NCBI GenBank assembly: GCA_051362555.1 | Contig: CM120647.1 | Coordinates: 12,934,651 to 12,998,650 of the forward strand | Origin: Lingula anatina | Taxonomy: Eukaryota > Animalia > Brachiopoda | Length of the DNA: 64,000 nucleotides | Direction of reading: 5' to 3' | In this document: in pieces, positions 20,438-23,767 of the stretch | Layout of the letters: each line of letters starts with the position of its first letter | How positions within the stretch are numbered: position 1 is the stretch's first letter | Notes under the pieces: model-generated | What the model was told of the DNA's origin: nothing | The model's input: the letters and a program-made list of their open reading frames with translations, nothing else | Database searches by the model: none | Program-made: the position numbers and the translations under genes

Positions 20438-23400
20438 GAATGCAATGATGACTCACTAAAATGTATTACCTCATCTGTAGAATGGCGAGCATCATATCTC
20501 TTCTTTTGCTCTTGTTGAGCCTTTCTCATGTTTTTCAGTACTGCCTCTCCTACTGTCTTGTTCATAGTGACCACCCTATTTTCCACTTCTTTTTGACAAT
20601 CTGCAACAGTCGGCATATGTATGCCACTGGGCCCTGGCACTTCTTCACCATCTTCTCCATCACTTTTGCACACATCTGTTGGTAGTACAGGTTCTCTACA
20701 GACAAAATAAATTTAATTGTATGCACAGTTACCCATTCCTTAAATTTTATTTATTATAATCATCCGATATAACATATAATAAAAAGACGACATTGTTAAA
20801 TATCACTTACATCATTGAAGAAAATGTGTGGAAATATATATATTTTTATTTATTTTATTTTATTATTATTATTATTATTTTTTTTTTTGATAAAAAGCCA
20901 AAGAATCCAATATTTATGGTGAAGAAAAGTTCAAATTCCTCTTTACCTCCAAAACATCAGATAAAAAGGGGAAAACCCAGTCGATGCATTGATGGACGTA
21001 TTATACGCAAAGACAACATCCCCAAAAACTTCGTCCCATTGGTGATCATCCTGGTACTTTAACAGCATGTCCTTCAGGGTTTGGTTAAAAAGTTGTGGAA
21101 AAAAGGATAAATAGTAAAATTCATCCAATACATAAATGTTATAGAAGAATATGTACTCATCTCACCAAACTAATAACTTGTATAGATAGCATTATATAGT
21201 ATGTATTATATAAAATGGCCAATCTAACCCTTAACTAAAATGTGGGCTAAAATTACTGACAATATATGGCATACAAACATGTATAAAATGTGTTTATTAA
21301 AGAATAAAACATACCCGTGAGACCATTGCATTGAGGATGGTAAGCTGTGGTTCTTGTGTTTAATTTTGAGGGATGTGGTTATGGAATGTAACAAATTGTT
21401 GTTATGAAAATTAACTGTAAATGAACGCTTACTTTATAATTCGACTTGTTAGTTCTTCGAATTACTCTTTTCTGGGTCGGTGTTGTGCCTATCGGATATG
21501 TGCCCTCTTGAAGATATTGAAATATAACCTCTATGTTGGGTCTATCACGGGTGCTGCTCGTCCCTTCCATATCCAAAGTCAAGTGAGGGTGTGGTATAAG
21601 AAAATGAGCGTATTTATAGTAGTGCAAGAAAGCGCGTGGCATCTGTAACCAACCAAAATCATCTGACGTGGCAAAGTAAAATGACCAGCAAACATGACAA
21701 AGACATAAAAATTACGAAAATCACACCGGTAAAACGAGGAGGACAATTGCAGTCAAAACCATCATGGTTCTTTCGACAGGTGGCGCCTCTGGCACATTGG
21801 TTGTTCGAGCATCCATTCCTATCTGGAAATGAACAAGTATCAAATATTCTGTCAATTTCCACGGTACAGTTCTTTATTCTATTCCAGTGCATAGTATATA
21901 TTTAATGATATACTTTATACTTGTACAATTACAAAATGACGGGTTTTGTACCCACAGTTTCGCCACCAGATGGACATTGTGCCTTGGTAAGTGGAAGATA
22001 TATATCATTATGTCTCAGCGATCAGTTTTATTTGCTTTATTGAACAACACAAGAGTCAGATCTGAAAATGTAAAGAATTGTCTCATTTCAAGACAAGAAT
22101 CTGGACAAGAAAGGCCACGTCTTTCCTATGCCGCGACTTGCGAACGACTCATAGTAATAACAACATCAACTTAAAAGCAACTCAATCACACGAATAAAAA
22201 CATGAATAACTATACAACAAAATTACTTAACTAACAAAATAACTTAACTTATAAAACGAAATGTATCAAAAATAAACAATTTATGTGAAGTAGGAATGGA
22301 ATGATAAAGGAGGAATAATAAGAAACCAAAAGTTGAATACCAAATGAAACATAAGAAAGAAAAACAGAAATAAAACTCACGCCTACCTGAAAATATAAAA
22401 GAAGTGTCTCATTTCAAGACAACAAACTGGACAAGAAAGACCACGTCTTTCCTATGGCGCGACTTGCGAACGACTGATCTCTTTCCCTCGCGCGAAACAG
22501 ACTTTGGACAAAGAAAAACACACACAAGAGTAAACGAAAATACACGAATGAAGACGAACGAAAACGAACACAAGGAGAACACAATGACAGCACAAGGAGA
22601 GCGAAACTAAAGTATTTCGCCTGTCAAAAGTACACCAAAAAGGCCACATAGTTCTCGCACTTGATACTATTTCAACAAAGTTTCCCAAACCAATGATTGG
22701 TCAGTGTCATACATATCTACGGTCAAGCACCTTAATAGTCTGCCATGCCAAAGCTTTGGAGTAATATATGGTAATTAGTAATCGATAAAAATTTGGACTT
22801 TCACATGATTAACAGAACCCTTTATTTAATTAAATATATAATTATTTTATAAATTTATTTGTCTATATTTTCTATTTTCTATTTGTCTTCCGCCATTTAT
22901 TTTCAAATTAAACCTATTGTTTACAGAATTAAAACTTTTACAATTATGGCTGAGTTGCTCACTTTTTTCTTCTTGGGTATGCACAAGTGACCATACAACA
23001 GTAACAACCAGTGCAGCGCATATGATTCCAATTAACACCAATGCTATTTGTAACCGTCTATTGACTTTTGTCTTTGGTGGCTGTGTAATGCTTGGATTGG
23101 TGTCAATGACATTGTTGGTAGGACCACAAATCCTAATACTCTCGTAAACACTTGACGTCTCCTCTGGAGCACAATTCACATCTGATGACGTTTGATTTCT
23201 ATTAACTTTTGTCTTTGGTGGCTGTGTAATCTTTGGATTGGGGTCGGTGATATTGTCGGTAGGACCACAAATCCTCATACTTTTGTAAACACTTGGCGTC
23301 TCCTCTGGAGCAAAATTTACATCCGATGACATTTCATATGTTGCGTTTACATACCCGGCGCTTTGGTTTCTATTAACATTAGTCTTTGATGGCTGTGTAA

Positions 23401-23767
23401 TCCTTGGCTTGGGGTCAGTGACATTGTCGGTAGGACTTAAAATCATCATACTCTCGTAGACATTTGGCGTCTCCTCTGGAGCAAAATTCATATCTGTTGA
23501 CGTTTCATATGTTGAGTTTACATACGCGGCGCTTTGGTTTGGAGGAGTAGTAAATAACTCGATACCTAAAAGCAGTAGTGAGAAACCAACACATTTATTT
23601 AAAAATATTATGTTGGACACTGGGCAAGCATTTCTTCGCGTACTCTCCCATCACATATTTATTTTTATAGCTTAAATTTTAGACAGATTAGTAGAATTAA
23701 ATCTTATTTGTACAAAATGATTAAATTAAACATTCATCCCTGGATGCATACCTCTTGTGTCTGCCAT
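15109..23767 (-). CDS. Receptor copy A: type II TM protein, 3 Tyr-motif tail repeats, 5 intact EGF exons (+1 transposon-split, +1 decayed), C-terminal group A SRCR; functional status uncertain
   Basis: Exons 23767-23752 (MADTR), 23565-~22942, [21822-21726+19569-19553 split], 18882-18772, 18561-18448, 18052-17939, 17591-17478, 17163-17053, 15443-15109 (TGA). Confidence 0.75.
15540..16530 (-). mobile_element. 5'-truncated CR1/L2-group LINE (RT C-terminus and 3' end)
   Basis: [58 protein letters not shown], then [21 protein letters not shown]...[12 protein letters not shown]; stops and frameshifts present. Confidence 0.88.
16707..16790 (-). pseudogene. Decayed type C EGF exon of copy A
   Basis: [29 protein letters not shown]; in-frame TAG at a Cys position and 5' part lost. 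Confidence 0.8.
17053..17163 (-). CDS. Copy A EGF exon type B
   Basis: [37 protein letters not shown], donor GTGAG. Confidence 0.88.
17478..17591 (-). CDS. Copy A EGF exon type A
   Basis: [38 protein letters not shown]. Confidence 0.88.
17939..18052 (-). CDS. Copy A EGF exon type D
   Basis: [38 protein letters not shown], donor GTAAGT. Confidence 0.88.
18448..18561 (-). CDS. Copy A EGF exon type C
   Basis: [38 protein letters not shown]. Confidence 0.88.
18772..18882 (-). CDS. Copy A EGF exon type B
   Basis: [37 protein letters not shown]. Confidence 0.88.
19574..21725 (-). mobile_element. Ginger1-like (Gypsy-integrase-related) DNA transposon; intron-containing, internally deleted
   Basis: TGTGA...TCACA termini; flanks gcgg (19570-73) and ccgg (21726-29). 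Spliced integrase pieces: [11 protein letters not shown]...[18 protein letters not shown]|gt, [55 protein letters not shown] (GPY/F-like). No LTRs, gag or RT seen. Confidence 0.85.
21726..21822 (-). pseudogene. 5' part of a type A EGF exon split by the Ginger insertion (3' part at 19553-19569)
   Basis: Removing the element and one TSD restores exactly 114 nt: [33 protein letters not shown]+KLCQL G|GT. Confidence 0.9.
22062..22475. repeat. ~88 bp direct repeat pair (22062-22149, 22388-22475) in sequence absent from copy B
   Basis: ctgaaaat..aa..gtctcatttcaagacaa...ccacgtctttcctatg.cgcgacttgcgaacgact occurs twice. Confidence 0.8.
22942..23565 (-). CDS. Copy A exon: three Tyr-motif repeats (57, 57, 47 aa) + TM helix
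   Basis: [12 protein letters not shown]...[18 protein letters not shown]...SVYKSM; NQ-TSSD...SVYESI; then [31 protein letters not shown]. The only phase-1 donor I found is a weak T|GTAAAA, so the 3' boundary is uncertain. Confidence 0.8.

What the first reader, a model, noticed from the sequence alone, without database searches (positions are those of the whole stretch)
23050..23545. Signalling-tail copy number differs between paralogs (3 vs 1) through an intra-exonic 171-bp repeat
Seen: copy A has 57+57+47 aa units and copy B has one. Unit motifs are YVN(S/A)TYE plus NVYESM, SVYKSM, SVYESI (A) or NVYESL (B); the third A unit has lost the YVN block. Known: pYxN binds Grb2 SH2, pYxxM binds PI3K p85, and SxYxxI fits the ITIM consensus (SHP/SHIP). 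Inference: one codon at Y+3 may switch a unit between activating and inhibitory docking, as in paired immune receptors. Caveat: the units also contain NxS/T sequons, so topology must be confirmed.
Basis: partly seen in the sequence, partly recalled or inferred. Interest (0 to 1): 0.75.

Follow-up and report, generated by a model that had tools for sequence, protein, structure and literature searches.

The report
Tripled tyrosine tail, Lingula scavenger receptor
In the lamp shell Lingula, one gene in a cluster of likely scavenger-type surface receptors carries three copies of a tyrosine-motif module in its predicted inner tail where its neighbours carry one, which likely adds docking sites for uptake and signalling proteins rather than working as the on/off switch first proposed.

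Summary
Exon 2 of gene A has 57+57+47-residue units and gene B has one. Contigs of 4 of 4 DNA runs bridge the array. The genes belong to a Lingula cluster of predicted type II receptors: tail, one membrane helix, EGF repeats, terminal SRCR domain. The tail is inferred to be cytoplasmic, so the sequons are irrelevant. Across 15 family units the tyrosines are well kept (12/12, 12/12, 14/15), but only borderline beyond what tyrosine's slow change predicts (P 0.05-0.08). The conserved first block is Y-x-N-x-x-Y, which fits an NxxY sorting motif as well as a Grb2 site. Y+3 varies only among L/I/M/F, no more than expected. No membrane helix carries a charged residue (0 of 12), so the paired-receptor switch is not supported. 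A's copies arose in place and diverged almost neutrally (dN/dS 0.49-1.22, against 0.29 for EGF exons). Most likely this is a valency gain in an uptake/signalling tail, partly decaying. Binding is untested, and expression of the tripled exon is not shown. New variant of a known kind; modest interest.

The parts
23752..23767 (-). Gene A first coding exon (start codon, 5 residues), GT donor
   Evidence: same start in RefSeq P0002
22963..23565 (-). Gene A exon 2: whole tail array, membrane helix and short stalk
   Evidence: donor at 22963 used by 6 RNA reads of a related copy in X17 and by model P0002
23369..23539 (-). Tail unit 1, 57 aa: YVNSTY and NVYESM (other form in P0002: YVIATY, IVYEDM)
23198..23368 (-). 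Tail unit 2, 57 aa: YVNATY and SVYKSM
23057..23197 (-). Tail unit 3, 47 aa: first block deleted, SVYESI 31 residues from the helix (the ancestral position)
22982..23053 (-). Single predicted membrane helix, no charged residue
   Evidence: hydropathy 2.96 over 19 residues; helix 175-213 in the model of P0002
21726..21822 (-). First part of an EGF exon that is split by an insertion; its end lies at about 19573-19553. Likely skipped (all EGF exons are phase 1-1; P0002 lacks this module)
19574..21725 (.). 2.15-kb insertion with fragments resembling a Ginger/Gypsy-type integrase, flanked by CCGG and CCGC
   Evidence: Ginger1 features from PMC2836005 passages; only 5 nt of terminal inverted match
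17053..18882 (-). Five intact EGF exons of gene A (18882-18772, 18561-18448, 18052-17939, 17591-17478, 17163-17053)
   Evidence: three of the joins seen in X17 reads of related copies
15109..15443 (-). Terminal SRCR exon of gene A with stop codon
   Evidence: Pfam PF00530, E 3.8e-32
11620..13387 (-). Headless third copy: four EGF exons and an SRCR exon with a 1-nt gap near 11872; no tail exon in the window
   Evidence: the first half of P0001 is the matching gene with its own head
8723..8738 (-). Gene B first coding exon
8077..8415 (-). Gene B exon 2 with the single tail unit (8389-8219: YVNATY, NVYESL) and helix
4254..7758 (-). Six EGF exons of gene B; no SRCR exon found for it in the window

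Best explanation
The stretch is three in-frame copies, inside one exon, of a tyrosine-motif module that the other genes of this Lingula cluster carry once, in the predicted cytoplasmic tail of a predicted type II EGF-SRCR receptor, and the extra copies likely add docking sites for uptake and signalling adaptors rather than switch the receptor on or off. Shown: the exon layout, the three copies, their origin inside gene A after it split from its paralogues, and the conserved pattern Y-x-N-x-x-Y ... V-Y-E-S-[LIMF]. Inferred: the SRCR tip binds microbial or self ligands; unphosphorylated Y-x-N-x-x-Y is read by a PTB/FERM adaptor (SNX17 or Dab type) and YxxPhi by the AP-2 mu subunit, giving uptake and recycling; when a Src-type kinase phosphorylates the same tyrosines, SH2 proteins (Grb2 at YxN; SHP, Src or p85 at YES-Phi) would bind instead. 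The copy next to the membrane keeps the ancestral sorting position; the two distal copies raise valency and drift under relaxed selection.
For: Type II layout in all 8 full or fused RefSeq models with a head; tail 1-173 has pLDDT under 50 and no secondary structure (weak model). Both tyrosines of the first block are invariant in 12 of 12 units and Asn in 11 of 12, while the residue after the second Tyr varies (E, G, R), as expected for a reader of residues N-terminal to the Tyr (Y1+N+Y2 joint P 0.025-0.03). YxN is kept where the sequon is lost (3 units). YxxPhi in 14 of 15 units, 31 residues from the helix in B and in A's unit 3, inside the 10-40 range given in PMC4584282, whose table also lists YENPTY and the proline-less FENTLY (passages). 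SNX17 reads NPxY/NxxY (PMC9006456 passages). A's units form one clade, bootstrap 97. All 6 distal-motif tyrosines are kept in both forms of A. Motif duplication raised SHP2 binding about 100-fold for CagA EPIYA-C (PMC5408210 passages; analogy only).
Against: No binding or localisation was tested. There is no proline, so strict FxNPxY is not met. I picked the second tyrosine after seeing the alignment. 20 of 57 columns change at most once, so the motif residues are not uniquely conserved, and the model-aware test for the three tyrosines is only P 0.05-0.08. V at -1 (14 of 15) and S at +2 (14 of 15) are more fixed than a plain YxxPhi needs, which points to an SH2 reader. dN/dS among A's units is not distinguishable from 1 (binomial P 0.52), so the added copies may do nothing. 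RNA depth on the tripled exon was at most 0.5 in 4 runs, and gene A has an insertion in its first EGF exon.
Confidence: 0.5

Rival explanations
1. One reading: the units are phosphotyrosine sites, and the Y+3 residue switches a unit between activating (Met, PI3K p85) and inhibitory (Ile/Leu, SHP/SHIP) docking, as in paired immune receptors.
For: YxxM in 4 of 15 units (units 1 and 2 of both forms of A); strict ITIM consensus in 4 of 15; one paralogue, P0007, has Phe in place of the Tyr. Acidic residues upstream resemble a Src-kinase site (recalled). The cluster is tandem and variable between genomes. Botryllus FcoR alleles swap ITIM and hemITAM by single substitutions (PMC12582321 passages).
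Against: Y+3 variation is as expected by chance. Met and Ile units sit in one chain, not in paired genes. B and four other units with Asn at -2 match neither class. 0 of 12 helices carry a charged residue. YKSM has Lys at +1, a poor p85 fit (recalled).
Confidence: 0.15
2. The triplication is a neutral slip in a loosely constrained, unstructured tail; only one module matters and the others are decaying.
For: dN/dS 0.85, 1.22 and 0.49 among A's units against 0.29 for EGF exons and helix (Fisher P 0.09). Unit 3 lost its first block, and the other form of unit 1 lost the Asn and differs at 8 of 57 residues against 30 of 448 elsewhere (P 0.06). Short matching sequence at the unit borders fits unequal crossing-over.
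Against: All 7 tyrosines are kept in both forms of A. Three units were seen in 4 of 4 DNA runs and in RefSeq, with no contracted form listed, although the copies are 12-15% diverged and so not recent.
Confidence: 0.25
3. Gene A in this haplotype is silent or dying, so its tail has no present function.
For: Insertion in the first EGF exon; neighbouring headless, frameshifted copy; almost no RNA reads on the tripled exon in 4 runs.
Against: With that exon skipped the frame is open for 505 residues with GT-AG borders and matches P0002 end to end. Only 6-25% of each run was read, tissues are unknown, and related copies are spliced in X17.
Confidence: 0.1

Closest known systems
Class A scavenger receptors (SR-A/MSR1, MARCO, SCARA5); features recalled
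   Same: Type II topology with one terminal six-cysteine SRCR domain
   Different: Stalk is EGF repeats, not collagen or coiled coil; tail carries a two-motif tyrosine module in one or three copies
Tyrosine sorting tails: APP YENPTY, FENTLY, and YxxPhi of transferrin and asialoglycoprotein receptors (PMC4584282 passages)
   Same: Y-x-N-x-x-Y six-residue pattern; YxxPhi about 30 residues from the helix
   Different: No proline; no sequence homology; both motifs are packed into one repeatable module
CED-1/Draper/MEGF10 engulfment receptors (recalled, no call)
   Same: EGF-repeat outer part; NxxY-type motif followed by YxxL in the tail
   Different: Those are type I with an EMI domain and true NPxY; no homology was tested or seen
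Paired type II receptors of the NK complex (Ly49, NKG2; recalled) and Botryllus FcoR (PMC12582321 passages)
   Same: Tandem, variable cluster with tyrosine motifs in the tail; one member with Tyr replaced by Phe
   Different: SRCR/EGF rather than lectin or Ig domains; no charged-helix activating member; ITIM consensus in only 4 of 15 units
CagA EPIYA-C repeats (PMC5408210 passages)
   Same: One to three tandem copies of a tyrosine module in a disordered tail
   Different: Bacterial effector, unrelated; there the copies are near identical and binding gain is measured
RefSeq XP_013397944.1 and neighbours, named Notch-like, fibropellin or DMBT1-like
   Same: The same gene and family
   Different: Automatic names follow the EGF or SRCR part and do not describe the type II head or tail

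Membership tests
Class A scavenger receptor | Type II membrane topology | tested here: met
   Single helix after a hydrophilic N-terminus with basic residues before it; prediction only
Class A scavenger receptor | C-terminal SRCR domain | tested here: met
   PF00530, E 3.8e-32, followed by the stop codon
Class A scavenger receptor | Collagen stalk | tested here: not met
   Only EGF modules between helix and SRCR; not a member
ITIM-bearing inhibitory receptor | S/I/V/L-x-Y-x-x-I/V/L in the cytoplasmic tail | tested here: inconclusive
   1 of 3 units in A, 0 of 1 in B, 4 of 15 in the family
ITIM-bearing inhibitory receptor | Phosphorylation-dependent SHP or SHIP binding | not testable with these tools
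   Needs pull-downs
Paired immune receptors | Tandem paralogues with similar outer parts | tested here: met
   61-77% identity to P0002 for 7 models; seven head-bearing models on a contig of the same length, 459,621
Paired immune receptors | Activating member with short tail and charged membrane residue | tested here: not met
   0 of 12 helices read; two further models lack a head
hemITAM receptors (Dectin-1/CLEC-2 type) | [ED][ED][ED]xYxxL (as given in PMC12582321) | tested here: not met
   Acidic pair lies at -6/-5, not -4 to -2, in the units listed
YxxPhi sorting signal | Tyr with bulky hydrophobic residue at +3, 10-40 residues from the helix | tested here: met
   14 of 15 units; 31 residues in B and in A unit 3, 78 and 135 for A units 2 and 1
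NPxY/NxxY sorting signal | Strict [FY]xNPx[YF] | tested here: not met
   Ala, Ser or Val in place of Pro in all 12 units
NPxY/NxxY sorting signal | Relaxed aromatic-x-N-x-x-Y | tested here: met
   11 of 12 units that hold the block
NPxY/NxxY sorting signal | Binding to a PTB or FERM adaptor | not testable with these tools
   No Lingula adaptor sequence was in hand; no complex job was run
Ginger1 transposon (the insertion) | CCGG target duplication and TGT ends | tested here: inconclusive
   CCGG left, CCGC right; TGTGA and TCACA ends
Ginger1 transposon (the insertion) | 40-270 bp terminal inverted repeats | tested here: not met
   Only 5 nt match in the 45 nt compared; called Ginger-like relic only

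The most novel reading that the evidence does not exclude
Lingula has independently built an NK-complex-like cluster of type II EGF-SRCR receptors whose output is set by a modular tail exon: one module in most genes, a Tyr-to-Phe decoy in one, and in gene A a triplication that turned the two new copies into PI3K/Grb2 sites while the membrane-near copy stayed inhibitory, with divergent alleles of unit 1 kept in populations.
Probability: 0.15. Interest if true: 0.7.

Novelty: new variant of a known kind. Interest (0 to 1): 0.35.

Why it matters
Brachiopod surface receptors are barely characterised, although 113 SRCR genes are counted in Lingula (PMC10855680 passages). This family joins a scavenger-type tip to an EGF stalk and a one-exon tail module that can be copied, so it offers a natural series (1 versus 3 units; Y+3 L, I, M, F; Tyr to Phe) for asking whether lophotrochozoan tyrosine tails are sorting signals, SH2 signals or both. 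Tail-motif repeats themselves are a known way to raise valency, so the surprise is limited.

Tried and rejected
No whole genome is held, so the cluster could not be read as DNA beyond the window; family rows are RefSeq protein models. Homologue searches with the head found only Lingula anatina: 4 of 381 candidates, 8 of 7994, 3 in 1.84 billion representatives. The SRCR search (91 of 214 candidates) gave no non-Lingula type II EGF-SRCR protein in my hydropathy screen of 97 stored proteins; these searches are weak for distant relatives. ESM Atlas: best hit 0.76, a lead only; two more tries did not complete. Pfam finds no family above cut-off in the tail. No RNA holder was listed. The fold is low confidence (mean pLDDT 43), so no fold search was run. 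No complex prediction was run: phosphotyrosine cannot be modelled and only stand-in partners were possible. N-glycosylation reading rejected: the tail is predicted inside and the sequon is lost in 3 units that keep YxN. Assembly artefact rejected. Origin of A's units from different paralogues rejected (clade support 97). Order of the duplications unresolved (85-88% identity). Contig depths in X2 are uneven (17-26 against 64) and I could not tell whether a second, shorter form hides there. Literature searches that did not show this family or architecture: (listings only; one search gave 0 papers). The supplement of PMC10855680 held only 43 characters; its domain tables may list these genes. Ghai 2013 was not held. 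No neighbouring control gene was compared, so the 7.5% protein difference from RefSeq cannot be called unusual.

Full report
Observation. The minus strand at 23565-22963 is one exon with an AG acceptor and a GT donor. It holds three in-frame units of 57, 57 and 47 residues (23539-23369, 23368-23198, 23197-23057) before a hydrophobic helix; the paralogous exon at 8415-8077 holds one unit of 57. The third unit lacks 30 nt that carry YVNATYE. Contigs bridge both unit borders in 4 of 4 DNA runs laid, and no joint that skips a unit is listed (the tables were cut, and contigs drop rare variants). X5 and X6 carry a second form with three units and the same unit-1 changes as RefSeq P0002 at 23451, 23452 and 23463; X1 and X2 hold both unit-1 forms.

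What the genes are. The head finds only Lingula anatina proteins. Gene A reads: 16-nt first coding exon, tail exon, five intact EGF exons, terminal SRCR exon with stop; 505 residues, 467 identical to P0002. A further EGF exon is split by a 2.15-kb insertion with integrase-like fragments; it resembles a Ginger1 relic (PMC2836005, passages) but lacks long inverted repeats. P0002 also lacks this module, so skipping is likely. Downstream lie a headless copy with a 1-nt gap in its SRCR exon, then gene B with six EGF exons and no SRCR in the window. The first 30 residues are hydrophilic, the only helix scores 2.96 and is preceded by KTKVNRR, so the topology is predicted type II and the tail cytoplasmic. 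AlphaFold gives the tail no structure, in a weak model. RNA: of 4 runs only X17 covers the gene broadly, mostly with reads under 95% alike; 6 reads join 22963 to 21822 with five other letters, so they come from a related copy; depth on the tripled exon is 0.5 or less. Expression of A's tail is not shown.

Family comparison. I aligned 15 units: 4 from the window and 11 from RefSeq models. Left out: P0005 (same head as P0004), the first head of P0006 (model starts after the motifs), P0043 and P0044 (no head). Four rows are probable alleles of window units, so about 11 are independent. A's units form one clade (bootstrap 97), so the triplication happened inside A after it split from the other genes. 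In the 12 units that hold the first block both tyrosines are invariant and Asn is kept in 11; the middle residue varies (V, I, L, E, A). The distal tyrosine is kept in 14 of 15 (Phe in P0007). Two of the four invariant columns are tyrosines; a column permutation gives P 0.004 for the three, but simulation on the tree, which allows for slow tyrosine change, gives 0.05-0.08, and 0.025-0.037 with the Asn added; 20 of 57 columns change at most once.

The Y+3 idea. Y+3 is Leu in 8 units, Met in 4, Ile in 2, Phe in 1. Three changes against 1.7-1.9 expected is ordinary (P 0.25-0.30), and so is staying hydrophobic (53-63% of simulations). Met occurs only in A's two distal units and could be one event. 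Strict ITIM consensus holds in 4 of 15 units. None of 12 helices has a charged residue. This does not support paired receptors, though it does not exclude different SH2 preferences.

Selection on the copies. dN/dS is 0.85, 1.22 and 0.49 among A's units, 0.34-0.73 between A units and B, and 0.29 for helix and EGF exons. The A-unit ratio does not differ from neutral (P 0.52) nor clearly from the EGF value (P 0.09). Unit 1 differs most between the two forms of A (8 of 57 against 30 of 448, P 0.06), including loss of the Asn. All 7 tyrosines survive in both forms.

How it most likely works. The conserved first block is Y-x-N-x-x-Y with free residues after the last Tyr. That fits readers that look N-terminal to a tyrosine: SNX17 reads NPxY/NxxY (PMC9006456, passages), and YENPTY and FENTLY are listed uptake motifs (PMC4584282, passages; PMC10796103, passages). 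The same block contains the Grb2 pattern YxN (recalled). The second motif is a YxxPhi 31 residues from the helix, within the usual 10-40, with a fixed V-Y-E-S context that could also serve an SH2 domain. I infer a dual-use tail: sorting when unphosphorylated, SH2 docking when phosphorylated. Triplication leaves the membrane-near YxxPhi in place and adds two distal modules, which would raise valency; duplication of EPIYA-C raised SHP2 binding about 100-fold (PMC5408210, passages), an analogy only. All binding steps are untested. Confidence 0.5; neutral decay 0.25; the switch 0.15; silent gene 0.1.

Known and new. It works like a scavenger or engulfment receptor but is not class A (no collagen). 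Botryllus FcoR shows that motif swapping exists in invertebrates (PMC12582321, passages). The Lingula genome paper notes frequent EGF shuffling and 1.6% heterozygosity; the passages I saw do not mention this family (PMC4595640). Searches listed no paper on it; unread supplements of PMC10855680 may. An unchecked note of this scan describes a mussel type II EGF-lectin receptor with a repeated tyrosine tail exon, which suggests the design recurs. Verdict: real, a new variant of a known kind, interest 0.35.

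Noticed in passing
window 19574-21725: Insertion with intron-split integrase-like fragments, CCGG/CCGC flanks, splitting an EGF exon of gene A; Ginger-like relic
   Followed up: partly
window 11620-13387: Third receptor copy lacks its head exons here and has a 1-nt gap and a missing last cysteine in the SRCR exon, while RefSeq P0001 has the matching gene with a head: presence/absence variation in the cluster
   Followed up: partly
P0001 and P0006: Each RefSeq model fuses two neighbouring genes (a second tail and helix in mid-protein); likely annotation errors
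   Followed up: partly
P0007: Paralogue with Phe in place of the distal motif Tyr (SVFESL); its model ends without an SRCR domain
   Followed up: partly
window 4254-8415: Gene B head matches the second half of P0001 but its EGF run matches P0004, suggesting exchange between paralogues; no SRCR exon before the satellite at 1-1950
   Followed up: no
window 32710-37216: Tandem duplication of 2.27 kb at 96.7% identity
   Followed up: no
window 27626-31140 (minus): FkbM-type methyltransferase gene with a 30-nt tandem repeat (30782-31001, 7.3 copies) coding a Ser/Pro/Thr-rich stalk after a membrane anchor
   Followed up: no
window 55453-56757 (minus): 434-residue Ser/Pro-rich open frame with no Pfam match
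   Followed up: no
window 24184-24297: Short element heavily covered by partly fitting RNA reads in all 4 runs; likely a dispersed repeat
   Followed up: no
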